Below, one piece after another: positions 28,287-58,137 of a stretch of 64,000 bases of DNA. Location of the stretch: assembly GCF_024223415.1 (NCBI RefSeq), contig NZ_CP100500.1; one strand, written 5' to 3'. This DNA is from Escherichia coli. GTDB taxonomy: Bacteria > Pseudomonadota > Gammaproteobacteria > Enterobacterales > Enterobacteriaceae. The notes below the pieces were generated by a model that worked only from the letters and a program-made list of their open reading frames with translations, was not told the DNA's origin and did not search any database. Numbering within the stretch: position 1 is the stretch's first letter; every line of letters begins with the position of its first letter. The translations under genes and the position numbers were made by a program.

Positions 28287-28853
28287 ATGGCGAACTGGCA
28301 ATCTATCGACGAGCTGCAGGATATTGCATCGGATTTACCGCGATTTACCCACGCATTAGATGAACTTTCCCGCCGTTTGGGGTTGGATATCACTCCGTTG
28401 ACTGCCGATCACATTTCCTTGCGTTGCCATCAAAACGCCACCGCTGAACGCTGGCGTCGCGGGTTTGAACAGTGCGGCGAGCTTTTGTCAGAAAATATGA
28501 TCAATGGCAGACCGATTTGTCTGTTTAAATTGCATGAACCGGTACAGGTTGCGCACTGGCAGTTTTCCATTGTGGAGCTACCGTGGCCTGGGGAAAAACG
28601 TTACCCGCACGAAGGTTGGGAACATATTGAAATCGTTCTGCCGGGTGATCCAGAAACGCTGAATGCCCGTGCGCTGGCATTGCTTTCTGATGAAGGACTC
28701 AGCCTACCGGGGATCTCAGTGAAAACCAGTTCGCCAAAAGGTGAGCATGAACGATTACCGAATCCGACGCTGGCGGTCACCGATGGCAAAACAACCATTA
28801 AATTTCATCCGTGGTCCATTGAAGAGATTGTTGCCAGCGAGCAGTCGGCGTAA
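28287..28853 (+). CDS. yecM: YecM (VOC/glyoxalase-fold protein)
   Basis: MANWQSIDELQDIASDLPRF..., 188 aa; divergent from argS. Confidence 0.8.
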   Translation: MANWQSIDELQDIASDLPRFTHALDELSRRLGLDITPLTADHISLRCHQNATAERWRRGFEQCGELLSENMINGRPICLFKLHEPVQVAHWQFSIVELPWPGEKRYPHEGWEHIEIVLPGDPETLNARALALLSDEGLSLPGISVKTSSPKGEHERLPNPTLAVTDGKTTIKFHPWSIEEIVASEQSA

Positions 28854-40298: not shown

Positions 40299-40880
40299 TT
40301 AATGTGTCACTGGCGCTTCTGGCATACCATGAGTATTCAGGTCGTGAATCATTTCATCCAGAAGGAGTTCAAGCCCTTCGCGCCCCATAGCAGAGAGAAT
40401 GAAACCATTATCAGGATCTGCGATGAGCATTTTTTGATAGAGAAACAGAACTCGCCCCATGCCTTCAGTTTCGCCATATTTTTCAATAAATCCCCATTCG
40501 ACATGGTTTTGCAGGGCAATGCGAAGTGGTCCTGGGTATATACTTATGCAACCATGTTTCCCCTTGTAAATAACTGCGCGATCTGTCGTCCCGTTATCGT
40601 TAGGGATATCAATAGTGCCGTTCTTGTCTTCCTCTTCACTGATAAACTTCATCACATACAGCCAGCGCCACTGAGCAACCTTCAGATCGACTGAAAATCT
40701 TCCCAGCAATCCGGCATCATCAGCTTCGGCAAGACATTGCATGATTCTTAAACCGTGCCAGTATGGATTATCGAATTCGCCATCATTAAGCCGCTGTACG
40801 GCCTGAATATAATCAATGGTTGTATTACCAATTTTTATGCCATGTGGCGTTACTTCTGGTCGGAACTCTGAATGATTCAT
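40299..40880 (-). CDS. Hypothetical phage protein (about 193 aa from ATG at 40880)
   Basis: MNHSEFRPEVTPHGIKIGNTTIDYIQ...; no recognisable motif; ATGA overlap with upstream 67-aa ORF. Confidence 0.5.
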   Translation of the reverse strand: MNHSEFRPEVTPHGIKIGNTTIDYIQAVQRLNDGEFDNPYWHGLRIMQCLAEADDAGLLGRFSVDLKVAQWRWLYVMKFISEEEDKNGTIDIPNDNGTTDRAVIYKGKHGCISIYPGPLRIALQNHVEWGFIEKYGETEGMGRVLFLYQKMLIADPDNGFILSAMGREGLELLLDEMIHDLNTHGMPEAPVTH

Positions 40881-41080
40881 AATATTTGCTCCTTTGCTGG
40901 TGGAATAATCGTGTAGCCAGCTCTTTTTGCCATCCACAGAAATGTATCCATGCAGCCAACGAATTCATTATCCAGCAGATGTTTTGAGTAAATTACTTCA
41001 CCATTTTCAATGGTTAGCAACACTCTTACTTTTTTATGTGTTATGTTTTGTTGTTTTTCTTCCATTGACTTATCTCCCAT
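40877..41080 (-). CDS. Hypothetical small protein (67 aa) coupled to downstream gene
   Basis: MGDKSMEEKQQNITHKKVRVLLTIENGEVIY...; 4-nt overlap with next gene. Confidence 0.45.
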   Translation of the reverse strand: MGDKSMEEKQQNITHKKVRVLLTIENGEVIYSKHLLDNEFVGCMDTFLWMAKRAGYTIIPPAKEQIL

Positions 41081-53683: not shown

Positions 53684-54061
53684 TTACGGGCCTGTGGGAT
53701 CAGGTTGTTTTTTGTCTGATTCCAGAGGGAAGGGACGCTGTTTCGGTTCTCTGAACTTTAGTGATAATGAATTGAAAATCCTCATTTTTTGCTGCCATGC
53801 ATAATGTCTGTCCCATGAACAGGGGGGGCTCAATTCTTCATTCACCCATGCGTTAATATCTTGTTTCAGGTGTTGAAGCATACGGGGTGTTAATGCACTC
53901 ATAATAATATCCAGCGTTTTATGCGAGAGTTTACCGTAAGGGTCTGCAAGGATGCTGCTCGTTGCTTCGTTATTATCCACCATAAGTGGAAGTAGCGCTG
54001 ATTTAACTTTTTCTGTCATTAGTTGCAAAAATCTACTGCGCAAATTTTCTTTACTGTTCAT
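53684..54061 (-). CDS. Hypothetical protein on opposite strand inside the lysis cassette
   Basis: 125-aa ORF in the 655-bp gap between pinholin and endolysin. Confidence 0.35.
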   Translation of the reverse strand: MNSKENLRSRFLQLMTEKVKSALLPLMVDNNEATSSILADPYGKLSHKTLDIIMSALTPRMLQHLKQDINAWVNEELSPPCSWDRHYAWQQKMRIFNSLSLKFREPKQRPFPLESDKKQPDPTGP

Positions 54062-54184
54062 TTCTGAAGCCTCATCTGTTGTCGTTTGGTTTTCCTGAAC
54101 GGGTATGTTTATGAGACATGCTGGTACTGGATTATATACCTGATATATCCAGGGTTATAAACCTTTAGATCCTGATAAATATAC

Positions 54185-54718
54185 ATGAACGCAAAAATCA
54201 GATACGGCCTGTCGGCTGCCGTTCTGGCGCTGATTGGTGCTGGCGCATCTGCTCCTCAGATACTTGATCAGTTTCTGGACGAAAAAGAGGGTAACCACAC
54301 AACGGCATACCGCGATGGGTCCGGCATCTGGACCATCTGTCGGGGTGCCACGATGGTGGATGGAAAACCCGTTTTTCCCGGAATGAAGCTGTCGAAGGAA
54401 AAATGCGACCAGGTTAACGCTATTGAACGTGATAAGGCACTGGCATGGGTGGAGCGCAATATTAAAGTACCTCTGACCGAACCACAGAAAGCGGGTATTG
54501 CGTCATTCTGTCCCTATAACATTGGCCCCGGTAAGTGTTTCCCGTCGACGTTTTATAAGCGGCTTAATGCCGGTGATCGAAAAGGCGCCTGCGAGGCGAT
54601 TCGCTGGTGGATAAAGGATGGTGGGCGCGATTGCCGCATACGTTCAAATAACTGCTATGGACAGGTTATTCGTCGTGACCAGGAAAGCGCATTAGCCTGT
54701 TGGGGGATAGATCAGTGA
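54185..54718 (+). CDS. SAR endolysin (phage lysozyme, R21 type)
   Basis: 177 aa; N-terminal Gly/Ala-rich SAR segment [17 protein letters not shown]; catalytic E-x8-D-x5-T in [16 protein letters not shown]. Confidence 0.85.
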
Positions 54719-55182
54719 GCAGAGTCGCCGCGATTATTTATGCTCTGGTTATCTGCATCATCGTCTGCCTGTCGTGGGCGGTCAATCATTACCGTGATAA
54801 CGCCATCGCCTACAAAGAACAGCGAGATAAAAAAGTCAGTGAGCTGAAGCAGGCGACCGCCACCATTACTGACATGCAGCAACGCCAGCGTGCTGCTGAT
54901 GTACTCGATGCTAAATACACGAAGGAGTTAGCTGATGCGAAAGCTAAAAATGATGCTCTTCGGCGCAAGCTTGATAATGGTGGCAGGGTGCTCGTCAAAG
55001 GAAAATGCCCTGTGCCATCCTCAGCCGAAACCTCCAGCGCCTCCGGCATGGGCAATGATGCCACCGTCGAACTCTCTCCAGTTGCTGGACGAAACGTTCT
55101 CGGTGTCCGGGACGGAATTATCCGCGACCAAACAGCACTGAGAACGCTTCAGGAATACATCAGGACGCAATGCCTTCGATGA
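54700..55182 (+). CDS. Rz i-spanin
   Basis: N-terminal TM ([19 protein letters not shown]) then coiled coil; overlaps endolysin stop; exact start uncertain. Confidence 0.75.
54935..55141 (+). CDS. Rz1 o-spanin lipoprotein embedded in Rz
   Basis: +1-frame ORF inside Rz; lipobox VAGC; proline-rich [11 protein letters not shown]. Confidence 0.7.
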
Positions 55183-55400
55183 TAGCGATAATTTTACTCA
55201 TCATCCTTCACATCTGGCTCTGTAGACAGGGTGGTGATCACTTCTGGAGTGAATCCAGATTAAACATCTCATTGCTGATTCTTGATATTGAGCATCTGGC
55301 GCGCGGTAAGGGGCTGCGTTGAGATAAGAGCCAGTCATCACAAACACCAGGATTTAGCCTCGCATTCGCGGGGCTTTTTATTGCAACAAAGGTAAAGACG

Positions 55401-55688
55401 ATGGATGAAGAATATCGTAAAAACCTGCAACTGTGGTTTGGTCTTACGCATGCGTCGTTCTGCGTGATGCCGCGAGTATTCATGGAGGCTATGCCACCAG
55501 AATGGCAAGAGAAGATGGCTCAGTTGCTTTTTGAGTATAGCGACACAATCAAAACGGATGTCTGCGGAGTTCACAGCTGTTTTGTTACTGCCAAAGACGG
55601 CAACAACCGCTTTATGAGGATGCCAGAAGATATTCTGAACTATCGTCATCCCCGACGTGAATTCATCGAATCATTTCTGAAGAAGTAG
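55401..55688 (+). CDS. Hypothetical phage protein (95 aa)
   Basis: ORF downstream of spanins. Confidence 0.4.
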   Translation: MDEEYRKNLQLWFGLTHASFCVMPRVFMEAMPPEWQEKMAQLLFEYSDTIKTDVCGVHSCFVTAKDGNNRFMRMPEDILNYRHPRREFIESFLKK

Positions 55689-56309
55689 CCATTACAAAGC
55701 CTATCTACGGGTGGGCTTGATAATGAAACCAGAATTTATTCTGGGAAACCAGTTACGGCAGTACAGCGAAACAACCCAAGCCAGTAAGTGGGGAAATAAC
55801 ACTGGCAGCCACTGAAAGATGAACCTCCTGCCTTATGGCAAAAAAGATTCTTTGTGGTGGCGGACTGATGGAAAGACATCGGTTATTGCAGAGACCATTC
55901 AATGAGTGGTCTCGACAATGGCTTATACCCTACACGGGATAACTTAACTGATATCCCTTTTAACGGATAAAGGTATTCAAGCCTGACATATCATGCGCTG
56001 TATCGTCGCCGTATTCCCGTATTAACAGAGACCGTAGCCCGACGGGGAACTCCTTCTGCGCGAGTGTGCGGGAATAATCAAAAACGATGCACACCGGGTT
56101 TTTACCGCGTTTATGGTTCGCGGGTTTGTCCCTCATGCTCGCCAGTCCGGTGCGATGGTGGAAGAAACCGGAAGCTGTATTACAGAAAGTGCTACTACTG
56201 TATCCTGATGCGATGTATGTAATGTGAGTCAGATAATGGCACAGGATGTGGTGATGTGGCAGTCTGGAACACAGGATATATTGTCAGAATAAGACCCGTA
56301 GGAATAAAA

Positions 56310-56636
56310 ATGAAAAGACGCCTTTCACTACTTTTTCTGTTATCTGCCCTGGCAGTGGGATGCTCGCAGCAAAAAGCTGATGAGCCCCGGCAATTAGTGA
56401 CGGTGTATCCACGATATCCGGAATATGCTGCAGCAAATTATATCAAGGGGCTGGTTGAGGTTAAGTTCGATATTGGTGCTGACGGGACTGTGACACGGAT
56501 CGTTTTTCTCCGCTCAGAGCCTCATAATTTGTTTCGTGATGAAGTGGTGAAGGCCATGGCGAAATGGAGATTTGAAAAGAATAGTCCCCGTCAGGGAGTG
56601 AAGAGACAATTTATCTTTACGCCATCACGTCCCTGA
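56310..56636 (+). CDS. Lipoprotein with TonB C-terminal-like domain (moron candidate)
   Basis: ATG at 56310: MKRRLSLLFLLSALAVGCSQQ...; C-terminal YPRYPEYAAANYIKGLVEVKFDIGADGTVTRIVFLRSEPHNLFRDEVVKAMAKWRFE fits TonB_C pattern. Confidence 0.6.
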   Translation: MKRRLSLLFLLSALAVGCSQQKADEPRQLVTVYPRYPEYAAANYIKGLVEVKFDIGADGTVTRIVFLRSEPHNLFRDEVVKAMAKWRFEKNSPRQGVKRQFIFTPSRP

Positions 56637-57000
56637 TGCTTCCAGGTAGAGAGGGGCTGGAAGCAGGAGAAAAATGAAAGAGCCAGCGGTTATATTTTTG
56701 TCATGGCTGACGAGAAATGATGGAAGAAGGCGTTGTATGCCACACAACGCCTCACTGTTCATTTCTTCTTTTTCTCTGGTGTAACCCGATGAATAAGAGT
56801 TGCACTGGTTTCCGATGAGATGGCGATATGCTCGGGCAAAGTATGCTGGCAGTTTTCCAACTGGTCAAAAATACCTGCTCTCGTCTGTTGCAATGCCTGC
56901 AGCATGCGGCGGCAATGCGCCTTTGCTTTTGCTAACCATCTTTCCTTACTCTATCAGTCGCTGCGTGAACTCATCATGGAATACCAGGTAAATGCGGATG

Positions 57001-57252
57001 TTATCGGTTTTGGCTACGCAGCATAGTACAAAACGGACAGGTGCATCCCGGAATGGGGGAGGCGTCACATGTCCCTGTGATGGTTGTTCCGGGTAATGCA
57101 CTGTGTGGGGCATAAAAATGTCCGATAATTTTACTTTCTACCGCAGTTAGTTGATTCGTTGGTCCTGGTAGCACATTGGGCGAGGGTTTAAATGCCAGGC
57201 AACTGAAGGATGATGTTGCAAGGGAGATAGCGAGAATATTTCTGATTTTCAT
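57001..57252 (-). CDS. Small secreted cysteine-rich protein (moron candidate)
   Basis: From ATG 57252: MKIRNILAISLATSSFSCLAF... signal peptide; six Cys in mature part. Confidence 0.35.
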   Translation of the reverse strand: MKIRNILAISLATSSFSCLAFKPSPNVLPGPTNQLTAVESKIIGHFYAPHSALPGTTITGTCDASPIPGCTCPFCTMLRSQNR

Positions 57253-57403
57253 TTGATGATGCCTCTGTGTGAAATGACGGTAAACGACGCACTTGTGCCG
57301 GCACATAATAGCAAGCATCAGAATAGATCAGATTCGATTCTTGCTGTAAGTGATAATTATTCTCGTTTTTTTCGGGTCCTTTCCGGCGATCCAACAGGTT
57401 ACG

Positions 57404-57415
57404 GGGCGTCGACCT
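57404..57415 (+). other. cosN cohesive-end site (lambda-type)
   Basis: GGGCGTCGACCT, one mismatch from lambda GGGCGGCGACCT; flanking CTCGCG(C)GTTTTCGCTATTTATGAAAATTTTCCGG also matches lambda cos. Confidence 0.75.
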
Positions 57416-57449
57416 CGCGCGTTTTCGCTATTTATGAAAATTTTCCGGG

Positions 57450-57560
57450 ATCCATGTCCGGTTTCTCTGCAAGTTAACTATATGAAAAATATAAAAACAT
57501 GCTTTCTGCGAACCGGACATGTGCAAAAAATGTACAAACAAACCGGACATATGCGTGCGT
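57450..57560. promoter_or_regulatory. cosB-like terminase-binding repeats
   Basis: Three copies of CCGGACAT(G/A)TG core (one inverted) between cosN and terS. Confidence 0.5.
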
Positions 57561-57627
57561 TTGCATAAAGTTGCTCGCAAGATGCATGTTTAAAACGCAT
57601 GAGGGGAGATTTTTTGCGAGGTGAACA

Positions 57628-58137
57628 GTGGCTACGCAGACTGAAGTTGCCAGGCATTTGAGTCTGACCGATCGCCAGCTTCGCAGACTGCAGAAATTGC
57701 CGGGTGCCCCGATATCGAATAAGCGAGGGCAACTGGATCTGGATGCCTGGCGTGATTTTTACATATCGTATCTGAGAAGAAGTAAAAACGATGTGCCTGA
57801 TGGCGATAGCGAAGACGACTATGAGGAGAAATTGCTTATTGCCAGATGGGAACTGACAGCAGAACAGGCTGTTACACAGCAGTTAAAAAATGAGGTGTCA
57901 AAAGGAAAACTTATTGACACCGGATTCTGTATTTTTGCCCTCAGCAAGCTGGCAATGGCGTTATCCAGTACGCTTGATTCCATCCCTTTATCCATGCAAC
58001 GACAGTTTCCTGATTTAACACCGCGCCATCTTGACCATCTGAAAACCCTTATTGCGAAGGGGGCAAATCAGTGTGCGCGGGCAGGGGATAAATTACCGGA
58101 TTTACTCGATGAATATATCAGAGCAACAACTGAATAA
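57628..58137 (+). CDS. Terminase small subunit (Nu1-like)
   Basis: 169 aa; C-terminal region resembles lambda Nu1 (FPDLTPRHLDHLK... vs lambda FPELENRHVDFLK). Confidence 0.85.
   Translation: MATQTEVARHLSLTDRQLRRLQKLPGAPISNKRGQLDLDAWRDFYISYLRRSKNDVPDGDSEDDYEEKLLIARWELTAEQAVTQQLKNEVSKGKLIDTGFCIFALSKLAMALSSTLDSIPLSMQRQFPDLTPRHLDHLKTLIAKGANQCARAGDKLPDLLDEYIRATTE

What the first reader, a model, noticed from the sequence alone, without database searches (positions are those of the whole stretch)
55689..56309. ORF-poor 0.6 kb segment between the spanin-region genes and the TonB-C lipoprotein gene
No plus-strand ORF of 60 aa or more occupies this segment, which sits in a moron hotspot. It contains only short reading frames such as a 30-codon MKPEFILGNQLRQYSETTQASKWGNNTGSH, so it may be a degraded gene remnant or a non-coding regulatory or RNA element.
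Basis: seen in the sequence. Interest (0 to 1): 0.2.

Follow-up and report, generated by a model that had tools for sequence, protein, structure and literature searches.

The report
Conserved hairpins in phage gene gap
The 0.6 kb gene-free stretch is genuine non-coding spacer in a prophage late operon, not a dead gene, and it carries two copies of a previously undescribed, structure-conserved RNA-type hairpin that marks the boundary between lysis and DNA-packaging genes in prophages of many enteric bacteria.

Summary
Window 55689-56309 has no ORF of 60 aa or more on either strand, and RefSeq annotates nothing there.

It is not a decayed gene:
- A six-frame protein search found nothing.
- The small ORFs are broken in homologues.
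- Sequence variation shows no codon periodicity.

The gap is a mosaic of non-coding modules shared at 82-100% identity with P22, HK97, HK620, Sf6, phage 21, lambda and thousands of E. coli prophages. These modules have recurrent breakpoints where different accessory genes (P22 pid, Sf6 gp66, this window's 95-aa ORF and TonB-C gene) are inserted.

The new result is a hairpin family, C-AUUR-CA-[10 bp]-loop-[10 bp]-GA-YAAU-G, with two copies at 55691-55725 and 55885-55920.
- Stems differ between types but stay paired: 6-7 of 14 pairs show compensatory changes.
- G·U pairs favour the sense strand.
- The hairpin recurs in about 17 enterobacterial genera, always after the lysis genes and before the packaging genes. 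It lies 2-7 nt after a stop codon or just after a terminator.
- It has no Rfam match and no match in the literature searched.

Function is inferred, not shown. I read it as a cis-acting hairpin in the late mRNA (protecting, processing or insulating RNA ends) whose repeated copies also act as recombination joints. Interest is moderate.

The parts
55356..55385 (+). Context: intrinsic terminator t1 (AGCCTCGC-ATTC-GCGGGGCT + TTTTTATTG) after the 50-aa Sf6-gp65-like ORF
   Evidence: z = -3.15. It is annotated as a Rho-independent terminator in phage epsilon34. In O157:H7, E. albertii, Serratia, Raoultella and Pantoea a terminator sits 5-8 nt upstream of the hairpin.
55401..55688 (+). Context: 95-aa accessory ORF, itself an insertion between t1 and hairpin 1. 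It matches only the C-terminal part of PHROG 3527.
   Evidence: Its last 9 nt (gaagTAGcc, 55682-55690) are shared with the unrelated hkbL/HK97-type upstream gene.
55691..55725 (+). Hairpin copy 1 (type I): ATTA-CA-AAGCCTATC-tacg-GGTGGGCTT-GA-TAAT-G. It starts 2 nt after the TAG stop of the 95-aa ORF.
   Evidence: CM score 54.7 bits. Fold -14.9 kcal/mol, z = -5.56. Covariation. More than 10 unrelated left flanks join at its base.
55726..55884 (+). Module A2: near-invariant non-coding spacer (core 55755-55880) between the two hairpins. It contains the 30-codon and 28-codon pseudo-ORFs.
   Evidence: 97-99% identical in HK97, mEp234, HK620, Sf6, P22, epsilon34, POCJ13 and Chlobot. It is absent from O157:H7-type prophages. 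Breakpoints lie at 55738/48, 55753-55 and 55880/82.
55885..55920 (+). Hairpin copy 2 (type III): ATTG-CA-GAGACCATTC-aat-GAGTGGTCTC-GA-CAAT-G
   Evidence: CM score 58 bits on the + strand and only 13 bits on the - strand. Fold -18.2 kcal/mol, z = -6.12. Stem position 4 varies A-U, G·U, G-C among homologues including P22.
55921..55971 (+). Module A3: common downstream segment (GCTTATACCC...) with a small hairpin GGGATA/TATCCC (55936-55957) followed by TTTT
   Evidence: A3 with its flanking sequence (window 55904-55975) is the most widespread piece: roughly 1,500 further E. coli genomes carry only that part of the query. Right-hand breakpoints lie at 55934, 55941 (P22 pid moron) and 55971 (hkbM/DUF2560 or HNH gene).
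55972..55993 (+). Short linker shared with POCJ13, Chlobot and O157:H7 prophages
55994..56101 (+). Module B1: long irregular hairpin. It is homologous (82%) to lambda 46868-46974 (between bor and lambdap78) and to the DLP12 borD-ybcV spacer.
   Evidence: 98.5% of pair cells are kept, one pair is compensatory (CG13/UG9/GC4), and several C-to-U changes keep wobble pairing on the + strand. The single-sequence z is only -1.43.
56102..56172 (+). B1 tail: variable region with small stem-loops (CCGCG..CGCGG; TCCGGT..ACCGGA). Its right edge is a recurrent breakpoint where ybcV/lambdap78-type genes abut in other phages.
56173..56309 (+). Leader that travels with the TonB-C gene (94.8% to phage 21), with the Shine-Dalgarno AGGA at 56300-56303. 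It contains ATTACA...GATAATG flanks (56179-56239) that do not fold.
   Evidence: 13 bits, E = 2.5; z = +0.76. Phage 21's annotated 45-aa ORF is truncated here.
56310..56636 (+). Context: TonB_C-domain lipoprotein gene (a moron), followed by its own stem-loop at 56637-56665
   Evidence: Pfam PF03544, E = 2.6e-13. Hairpin z = -3.91.

Best explanation
The segment is true non-coding inter-cassette spacer of a lambdoid prophage late operon, at the boundary between the lysis cassette and the packaging genes. It is built from portable non-coding modules. These are two copies of a 35-39 nt hairpin (C-AUUR-CA-[~10 bp]-loop-[~10 bp]-GA-YAAU-G), a near-invariant 160 nt spacer, a lambda-type long hairpin (B1), and the leader of the TonB-C gene.

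Shown:
- The DNA is non-coding.
- The hairpin is conserved as a structure, not as a sequence.
- It folds best on the sense (late-mRNA) strand.
- Across many enterobacterial genera it always sits between the lysis and packaging genes, either 2-7 nt after the stop codon of an accessory gene or 5-8 nt after an intrinsic terminator, and in compact loci 20-60 nt before the next start codon.
- Cassettes are gained or lost exactly at hairpin copies.

Inferred: the region is transcribed as part of the Q-antiterminated late mRNA. There the hairpins act in cis as RNA-end structures. They would protect the 3' end of the upstream cassette, or the 5' end of the downstream message after processing, or insulate one from the other. 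This would uncouple the fates of the lysis, accessory and morphogenesis parts of one long transcript. Because the hairpin is repeated, its copies also serve as short homologies for recombination that inserts, swaps or deletes accessory (moron) cassettes.
For: Non-coding:
- No ORF of 60 aa or more and no annotation.
- No protein homologue in six frames.
- Small ORFs are interrupted in homologues.
- No codon periodicity (p = 0.50 and 0.85), whereas the adjacent hkbM gene shows 6.4% divergence at third positions against 0.4% at positions 1+2.

Hairpin family:
- 34 E. coli/Salmonella-phage variants are 96.6% paired. 7 of 14 pairs carry compensatory changes. 0 of 500 shuffles reach the covariation score. 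Slid controls pair only 35-49%.
- The cross-genus set is 99.2% paired, with 6 of 14 pairs compensatory.
- A genome scan that constrained only the 3' arm and the flanks returned 33 hits. In about 27 of them the unconstrained 5' arm is complementary. About 17 genera are represented, including Serratia, Pantoea, Enterobacter, Klebsiella, Kluyvera, Raoultella, Kosakonia, Citrobacter, Leclercia, Phytobacter and Trabulsiella.

Strand:
- 47-56 G·U cells would be A·C mismatches on the other strand.
- The CM scores 58 bits on + and 13 bits on -.

Position:
- The hairpin is always downstream of endolysin/Rz and upstream of terS/HNH.
- Stop codons lie 2-7 nt upstream for many unrelated ORFs.
- Non-homologous terminators lie immediately upstream in five genera.

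Recombination joints:
- Arrays seen are I, I-III, I-II, II, III and IV-III.
- O157:H7-type prophages have a hairpin joined directly to A3, with A2 missing.
- The Gp49/Sf6 gp66 cassette carries its own hairpin copy.

Constraint and hotspot:
- Block A diverges 2.5% against 6.4% at neighbouring third codon positions.
- P22 pid is described as a moron inserted where relatives have no insert or a different one (PMC3573128).
Against: - No transcript, processing or stability data exist for this element.
- The BTP1/P22-type RNA-seq study lists no RNA feature here.
- The hairpin lacks a U-tract, so it is not a canonical terminator.
- With 15 bp it is short for an RNase III substrate.
- Every module, including A2 and each hairpin type, is missing from some functional phages (lambda, phage 21 and DLP12 have no hairpin). 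None is therefore essential.
- High identity of A2 and B1 could reflect recent spread rather than selection. A2 offers almost no informative variation.
- An ssDNA hairpin tolerating G·T cannot be told apart from an RNA hairpin by sequence.
- The variant lists were gathered with sequence patterns, and the cross-genus alignment was fitted to the model. Both inflate pairing statistics somewhat.
Confidence: 0.5

Rival explanations
1. Passive linker DNA. The modules have no function of their own. They persist because lambdoid phages exchange modules by homologous recombination, and these stretches are the shared homology ('boundary' or 'linker' sequences) flanking alternative morons. The hairpins would be relics of old moron terminators.
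For: There are many recurrent breakpoints and alternative inserts. Every module is dispensable in some phage. A2 and B1 are nearly invariant, as expected from recent spread. Types I and II look like weak bidirectional terminators (A-run, stem, T-run).
Against: Relics should decay. Instead the hairpin keeps pairing through compensatory changes in four sequence types and about 17 genera, while both flanks are unrelated. Type III has no U-tract on either strand, yet it covaries.
Confidence: 0.2
2. The hairpin is a DNA-level recombination site, comparable to integron attC or REP/RAYT. Folded single-stranded DNA would be recognised by a nuclease or recombinase that moves accessory cassettes in and out of the lysis-packaging junction.
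For: The hairpin lies at the 3' end of same-orientation cassettes. It has conserved inverse cores (ATTRCA / GAYAAT) with a variable but paired interior. More than 10 unrelated left flanks join at its base, and cassettes are deleted between copies. GTAG sits 2 nt upstream in several unrelated flanks, as in REP elements. GIY-YIG or HNH genes lie nearby in some phages.
Against: No dedicated recombinase or RAYT is linked. The distance from the upstream junction varies (2-65 nt) rather than being a fixed crossover point. Copies occur only at this locus, not dispersed. Short-homology recombination explains the joints.
Confidence: 0.07
3. The segment encodes an independent small RNA, for example A2 plus hairpin 2, expressed from the prophage.
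For: Block A folds much better than shuffles (z = -4.16) and is conserved in 2552 of 5426 E. coli genomes.
Against: No sigma-70-like promoter scores 9/12 or better on either strand. No U-tract terminator is present. There is no Rfam hit at E <= 1. No ncRNA is listed at the homologous place in BTP1 across 22 RNA-seq conditions. The known prophage sRNAs (AgvB/AsxR, Pas) map upstream of the lysis genes.
Confidence: 0.07
4. The segment is a decayed protein-coding gene, or it holds real small-protein genes.
For: Two frames in 56064-56180 give weak hits to consecutive parts of PHROG 6954 (E about 1e-3), with a possible frameshift at a T5 run. A minus-strand frame of about 45 codons is open in many E. 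coli copies. Other annotators have called ORFs here: P22 orf25, Dewey CDS0073/74, phage 21 CPT_21_72 and two ORFs in Chlobot.
Against: The open frames differ in phase and length between loci and are broken in lambda and DLP12. Variation is not periodic. There is no hit among 5.8 billion proteins. The translations are Cys/Arg/Gly-rich. The PHROG families are probably built from such spurious calls.
Confidence: 0.06
5. The hairpin is a translational device. It would sequester a Shine-Dalgarno-like GAGUGG/GGUGGG and the AUG of GAUAAUG, so that a downstream frame is translated only when a ribosome terminating 2-7 nt upstream melts the stem.
For: The stop codon lies 2-7 nt before the stem in many unrelated cassettes. 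The AUG at the 3' end of the hairpin is conserved.
Against: The frames opened by that AUG are not conserved: 30 aa, 21 aa or 9 aa, and the start is lost in mEp234. In terminator-preceded copies no ORF ends nearby. The real downstream genes use their own start 20-60 nt further on.
Confidence: 0.05

Closest known systems
Moron insertion site flanking the P22 pid locus (Cenens et al. 2013, PMC3573128; Wolput et al. 2022, PMC8835761)
   Same: It is the same DNA. P22 40180-40368 is 93% identical to window 55755-55941, and the pid moron (40357-40998) begins where the homology ends. Those authors noted that relatives carry no insert or a different insert at this site.
   Different: Those papers treat the flanks only as homology lines. 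They do not describe the hairpin, which in P22 lies at 40312-40347 and overlaps the annotated orf25. This window carries a TonB-C gene and B1 instead of pid.
REP/BIME elements of enterobacteria (own knowledge)
   Same: Both are imperfect palindromes of about 35 nt placed just after stop codons within operons. Both come in several sequence types that keep pairing, and both occur singly or in tandem. REPs have known roles as mRNA 3' stabilisers and as recombination or insertion hotspots. GTAG lies just 5' of several copies here.
   Different: The sequence is unrelated and AT-rich at the base, where REP is GC-rich. The hairpin is confined to one syntenic locus in prophages rather than hundreds of dispersed copies. 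No RAYT link is seen.
Intercistronic RNase III processing hairpins of phage T7 (R1.1 and others) (own knowledge)
   Same: Both are a hairpin with an internal loop placed between cistrons of a long phage polycistronic mRNA. In T7, cleavage leaves a protective 3' hairpin on the upstream message.
   Different: This hairpin has only about 15 bp and a symmetric 2x2 loop, which is closed in one variant (L158). No cleavage data exist. T7 sites are longer.
Integron attC sites (own knowledge)
   Same: Both are structure-conserved, sequence-variable imperfect palindromes with conserved inverse cores at the 3' end of each same-orientation cassette.
   Different: There is no integrase. The core consensus is different. 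Arrays hold at most two copies. Junction offsets are variable.
Factor-independent terminators that bound morons (Juhala et al. 2000, as cited in PMC4104026; own knowledge)
   Same: Both are a stem-loop directly after an accessory gene in the Q-antiterminated late operon. Types I and II have A-run/T-run flanks.
   Different: There is no adequate U-tract. Type III has none on either strand. In five genera the hairpin sits right after a genuine terminator, so it is an additional element.
Lambda bor-lambdap78 and DLP12 borD-ybcV intergenic region
   Same: Window 55994-56101 is 82% identical and keeps the same long hairpin.
   Different: In lambda it lies between two minus-strand genes. Here both genes are absent and a plus-strand TonB-C gene follows.

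Membership tests
Protein-coding gene or pseudogene | Homology of a translated frame to known proteins | tested here: not met
   The six-frame translation searched against 5.8 billion proteins gave no hit at E <= 1e-3. Only weak PHROG hits appeared (E about 1e-3), to families likely built from ORFs called on this same DNA.
Protein-coding gene or pseudogene | Reading frame kept open in homologues, with variation concentrated at third codon positions | tested here: not met
   Homologues carry stops and 1-nt indels. Variation by phase is 20/22/15 and 56/58/52 (p = 0.50 and 0.85). The positive control hkbM shows 6.4% against 0.4%.
Rho-independent terminator | G+C-rich stem-loop | tested here: met
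   The hairpins fold at -14.9 and -18.2 kcal/mol, with z = -5.6 and -6.1.
Rho-independent terminator | U-rich tract directly 3' of the stem | tested here: not met
   The tails are GAUAAUGAAACC and GACAAUGGCUUA. The scan reports no plus-strand terminator inside the gap. In other genera a true terminator lies just upstream of the hairpin.
Independent sRNA gene | Own promoter and terminator, and a discrete transcript | tested here: not met
   No promoter scores 9/12 or better and there is no terminator. No ncRNA is listed at the homologous BTP1 site. Transcription in this strain is not testable here.
Any Rfam 15 family | Covariance-model match | tested here: not met
   cmscan of 54000-58000 on both strands at E <= 1 gave 0 matches.
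REP / BIME | Imperfect palindrome of about 35 nt located after stop codons | tested here: met
REP / BIME | Conserved GTAG tetranucleotide 5' of the palindrome | tested here: inconclusive
   GTAG lies 2 nt upstream in 4-5 unrelated left flanks, including window copy 1 and Serratia Ag1. It is absent from copy 2 and from many others.
REP / BIME | REP consensus sequence and many dispersed genomic copies | tested here: not met
   The sequence is unrelated. The CM finds only the two copies in 64 kb and at most two per locus, all at one syntenic site.
Integron attC | Adjacent integron integrase and the R''/R' core consensus (RYYYAAC/GTTRRRY) | tested here: not met
   The neighbours are lysis, accessory and terminase genes. 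The cores here are ATTRCA/GAYAAT.
RNase III processing site (T7 R1.1 type) | Intercistronic hairpin with an internal loop | tested here: met
   The structure is ((((..((((((((((...))))))))))..)))), placed between cistrons.
RNase III processing site (T7 R1.1 type) | About 20 bp of duplex and demonstrated cleavage | not testable with these tools
   There are only 14-15 bp, and cleavage needs an experiment.
Lambdoid late-operon moron insertion region | Located downstream of the lysis genes in the late operon, with alternative unrelated inserts at the same point in related phages | tested here: met
   PMC3573128.

The most novel reading that the evidence does not exclude
The hairpin is a dedicated cassette-boundary site, functionally like integron attC or REP. 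It would be recognised as a folded strand by an as yet unidentified nuclease or recombinase, making the lysis-packaging junction of enterobacterial prophages a site-specific acquisition platform for accessory (moron) genes.
Probability: 0.07. Interest if true: 0.8.

Novelty: new variant of a known kind. Interest (0 to 1): 0.38.

Why it matters
The stretch itself is ordinary. It is non-coding spacer at a recognised moron hotspot, and annotation pipelines are right to leave it empty.

What is worth keeping is the hairpin. It is a compact element under structural selection, present in roughly half of complete E. coli genomes and in prophages of about 17 enterobacterial genera. It always lies at the lysis/packaging boundary. 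It is absent from Rfam and from the literature I could search.

If it sets RNA ends or stability, it would help explain how one long late transcript yields very different amounts of lysis, accessory and structural proteins.

If it guides recombination, it would give a concrete mechanism for how virulence and fitness morons are shuffled.

It also flags several published small-ORF annotations (P22 orf25 and others) as probable artefacts.

P22, HK97 and HK620 all carry it, so it is directly testable in model phages.

Tried and rejected
- Rfam scan of 54000-58000 at E <= 1: nothing.
- tRNA/tmRNA scan: nothing.
- Six-frame protein search: nothing.
- PHROG scan of nine small ORFs (plus the 95-aa ORF): only marginal hits, which I judge to be families of spurious ORFs.
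- Promoter scans, from the tool and my own relaxed scan: best score 8/12.
- I first thought the 28-aa ORF was a Rha N-terminal remnant, because BLAST rows listed 'Rha'. This was rejected: the homology starts exactly at the END of rha in P22 and POCJ13.
- STnc6030 and the other BTP1 ncRNAs map elsewhere.
- EHEC anti-sRNAs (AgvB/AsxR) and the Pas sRNAs map upstream of the lysis genes.
- Covariation in A2 was uninformative, because copies are 93-100% identical and the variable sites fall at helix ends or in loops.
- B1 hairpin: only one compensatory pair, and the 3' arm was partly fixed by my search pattern.
- The third ATTACA...GATAATG at 56179-56239 does not fold (z = +0.76). I treat it as chance or decayed.
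- Repeat search for target-site duplications or terminal inverted repeats around A2: nothing convincing.
- Base composition is unremarkable.
- Literature searches, by topic and by the hairpin sequence strings, found no prior description.
- The supplement of Tree et al. could not be mined for coordinates.
- Genome-scan hits in Undibacterium, Planctomyces and one MAG do not fold and are not hit by the model, so I treat them as chance. Hits in Collinsella and Bacillota MAGs are identical to the E. coli block and are probably bin contamination.
Full report
**Setting.** The window region is the late operon of a lambdoid prophage of E. coli.
- The stretch I queried, window 55600-56400, is identical in four complete genomes, for example NZ_CP120557.
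- The gene order is lysozyme (54185-54718, PF00959), Rz/Rz1 (54700-55182), a 50-aa Sf6-gp65-like ORF (55170-55322), and an intrinsic terminator t1 (55356-55385).
- Next come a 95-aa accessory ORF (55401-55688), the gap in question, and a TonB_C lipoprotein gene (56310-56636, PF03544).
- The Nu1-type small terminase starts at 57628 and the large terminase at 58052.

**Observation.**
- No ORF of 60 aa or more lies on either strand between 55689 and 56255. This is the third-longest such stretch in the window.
- PGAP annotates nothing in the gap.
The only correction is that the left neighbour is an accessory ORF, not a spanin gene.

**Not a gene remnant.**
- A six-frame translation of 55680-56315 found no relative among 5.8 billion proteins.
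- The 30-, 28- and 35-codon frames acquire stops or 1-nt indels in Chlobot, HK97, mEp234, POCJ13, epsilon34 and P22.
- Frames through the right half differ in phase and length from locus to locus. They are broken in lambda and DLP12.
- Variable sites are spread evenly over the three codon phases (20/22/15 and 56/58/52; p = 0.50 and 0.85).
- By contrast, the adjacent real gene hkbM shows 6.4% divergence at third positions against 0.4% at positions 1+2.
- PHROG gave only marginal hits (E about 1e-3) to small families. These look like ORFs called on this same conserved DNA in other phages.
- Rfam (E <= 1), ARAGORN and promoter scans were negative.

**A mosaic of portable non-coding modules.** BLAST against phages and E. 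coli genomes shows the gap is stitched from widely shared pieces.

Block A (55682-55971):
- It is 91-100% identical in P22-like, HK97-like and Stx-like phages and in many Salmonella phages.
- It occurs in 2552 of 5426 complete E. coli genomes and is unannotated in nearly all the records listed.
- It always lies just after the last post-Rz accessory gene: rha in P22, gp73/hkbL in HK97 and HK620, a GIY-YIG gene in epsilon34.
- Downstream of it lie hkbM/orf80 (DUF2560), an HNH gene, or further morons.

Breakpoints:
- They recur at 55738/48, 55753-55, 55880/82 (Sf6 gp66, a Gp49-family gene), 55885/55904, 55934, 55941, 55971 and 56172.
- P22's pid moron (40357-40998) starts where the P22 homology ends.
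- Cenens et al. described pid as a genuine moron, integrated where relatives carry no insert or a different one (PMC3573128).

Block B1 (55994-56101):
- It is 82% identical to lambda 46868-46974, between bor and lambdap78, and to the DLP12 borD-ybcV spacer.
- From 55994 onward the DNA travels with the TonB-C gene in phage 21 (94.8% identity).

The 95-aa ORF:
- It is itself an insertion. In O157:H7-type prophages, terminator t1 is followed directly by the sequence that here begins at 55691.

**The hairpin family.** Reading the junctions showed that two places in the gap share one architecture:
- ATTACAAAGCCTATC-tacg-GGTGGGCTTGATAATG at 55691-55725
- ATTGCAGAGACCATTC-aat-GAGTGGTCTCGACAATG at 55885-55920

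A third type (ATTACAAAAGCCAYTC-cctaca-GAGTGGCTTTGATAATG) ends the Gp49 cassette, and in O157:H7 it follows t1. A fourth type (ATTACAGAAGCCCTTC-att-GAGGGGCTTCGATAATG) also exists.

The general form is a 4-5 bp AU-rich lower helix (C-AUUR/YAAU-G), a 2x2 internal loop (CA/GA), a stem of about 10 bp and a 3-6 nt loop.

Evidence for the structure:

| Test | Result |
|---|---|
| 34 distinct variants: cells paired | 96.6% |
| 34 variants: pairs with compensatory changes | 7 of 14, including ATTA/TAAT against ATTG/CAAT |
| 34 variants: shuffles reaching the covariation score | 0 of 500 |
| 34 variants: slid controls, cells paired | 35-49% |
| Window copies, fold against shuffles | z = -5.6 and -6.1 |
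| Covariance model over 64 kb | only these two sites: 58 and 54.7 bits on +, 13 bits on - |
| Cross-genus set (model-fitted alignment): cells paired | 99.2%, with 6 of 14 pairs compensatory |

The many G·U pairs would be A·C mismatches on the complementary strand. The folded strand is therefore the sense strand of the late operon.

**Breadth and position.**
- I scanned one genome per species with a pattern fixing only the flanks and the 3' arm. It returned 33 hits.
- In about 27 of them the unconstrained 5' arm is complementary.
- The hits come from about 17 enterobacterial genera: Escherichia, Serratia, Pantoea, Enterobacter, Klebsiella, Kluyvera, Raoultella, Kosakonia, Citrobacter, Atlantibacter, Leclercia, Phytobacter, Trabulsiella, Pseudocitrobacter, Shimwellia and others.
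- In those genomes both flanks are unrelated to the E. coli modules, yet the place is the same: downstream of endolysin and Rz, upstream of HNH/terS/terL.
- The hairpin begins either 2-7 nt after the stop codon of an unrelated accessory ORF, or 5-8 nt after the T-run of a genuine intrinsic terminator whose stem is not homologous between genera.
- The next start codon is usually 20-60 nt downstream.
- Lambda, phage 21 and DLP12 lack the hairpin.
- Loci carry one or two copies in the orders I, I-III, I-II, II, III and IV-III. Leclercia has two copies.

**How it most likely works.**

Shown: the DNA is non-coding; the hairpin is selected as a structure on the sense strand; it is tied to the lysis/packaging junction and to the 3' ends of accessory cassettes; and cassettes come and go exactly at hairpin copies. 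Examples of the last point are type I hairpins followed directly by A3, A2 missing in O157:H7, and Gp49 bringing its own copy.

Inferred:
- The region is read as part of the Q-antiterminated late transcript.
- The hairpins act in cis on that RNA. They could be protective 3' ends for upstream cassettes, protective 5' ends for the downstream message after processing, or insulators.
- Their repetition provides short homologies for cassette exchange.
- I cannot tell from sequence whether cleavage, exonuclease blocking or protein binding is involved.
- The hairpin is not a canonical terminator, because it has no U-tract and in five genera it follows a real terminator.
- At 15 bp it is short for RNase III.

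A2 and B1:
- A2 (55726-55884) and B1 remain unexplained beyond being conserved, structured and dispensable.
- Block A folds with z = -4.16 and diverges 2.5% against 6.4% at neighbouring third codon positions. Its copies are too alike to test covariation.
- B1 keeps a long hairpin with a single compensatory pair.

**Rivals.** The alternatives are passive linker or relic terminators, an attC/REP-like DNA site, an independent sRNA, a pseudogene or small proteins, and a translational-coupling device. Each is weighed in the rivals section. The strongest argument against pure passivity is that pairing is maintained through compensatory change across genera while both flanks turn over.

**Comparison with what is known.**
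- The locus is the moron site already noted around P22 pid, but the hairpin has not been described. It has no Rfam match and its sequence strings are absent from searchable full text.
- In layout it most resembles REP elements and T7 intercistronic processing hairpins, and more loosely integron attC. It fails defining features of each, as listed in the membership table.

**Verdict.** The gap as a whole is ordinary moron-hotspot spacer. The hairpin family inside it is a real, widespread and apparently undescribed cis-element of unknown, probably RNA-level, function. Interest is moderate (0.38).

Noticed in passing
window 55401-55688: The 95-aa ORF matches only the C-terminal 40% of PHROG 3527 (profile positions 139-230 of 233; E = 4e-55) and has no Pfam hit. 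It may be a truncated or domain-only version of a longer phage protein. It lies as an insertion between terminator t1 and hairpin 1.
   Followed up: partly
window 55685-55690; loci L004, L100, L116, L103, L260: The tetranucleotide GTAG lies 2 nt (1 nt in Serratia Ag1) upstream of the hairpin in 4-5 otherwise unrelated left flanks. Its TAG often serves as the stop codon of the upstream ORF. This is the arrangement known for REP elements. I could not decide between chance, shared ancestry and function.
   Followed up: partly
window 56637-56665: The TonB-C gene is followed directly after its stop codon by its own perfect 8-9 bp stem-loop (GCTTCCAG..CTGGAAGC, z = -3.9), unrelated in sequence to the hairpin family. 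The accessory genes examined here end in a stem-loop.
   Followed up: partly
window 56637-57627: A second gene-poor kilobase lies between the TonB-C gene and the Nu1-type small terminase. PGAP calls only two tiny ORFs there. It presumably holds the cos site. I did not examine it.
   Followed up: no
P22 NC_002371.2 40329-40406 (orf25); Dewey CDS0073/0074; phage 21 CPT_21_72; POCJ13 28545-28658; Chlobot CDS0086/0087: Small ORFs annotated in other phages on this same conserved DNA are not conserved as reading frames. The start codon of P22 orf25 lies in the hairpin loop. They are probably annotation artefacts.
   Followed up: partly
L133 (E. coli O157:H7 NE122, NZ_CP038319.1 3766902-3768068): O157:H7 lambda-like prophages have a 675-bp unannotated gap between the gp65-like ORF and a DUF1441 small terminase. 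It is built from t1, a type II hairpin, A3 and B1, and then a cos-like GC-rich stretch.
   Followed up: partly
window 56064-56180: Two overlapping plus-strand frames give weak hits to consecutive parts of PHROG 6954 ('Rz-like spanin', 81 aa), with the apparent frame switch at the T5 run near 56100. This is either a very old remnant or a family of spurious ORFs. I favour the latter.
   Followed up: partly
window 9158-9926 and 1992-2723: These are the two other long stretches (769 and 732 bp) without any ORF of 60 aa or more on either strand. I did not examine them.
   Followed up: no
L253 (Collinsella MAG) and L276 (Bacillota MAG): Contigs binned into Gram-positive MAGs carry the E. coli-type block A, with the hairpin and its immediate flanks identical. 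This most likely reflects bin contamination by enterobacterial prophage DNA.
   Followed up: no
L158 7284-7322: One variant has the internal loop closed (ATTATCAAAGCC...GGCTTTGATAAT), making a perfect 16-bp palindrome that scores on both strands. The CA/GA loop is therefore not strictly required.
   Followed up: no
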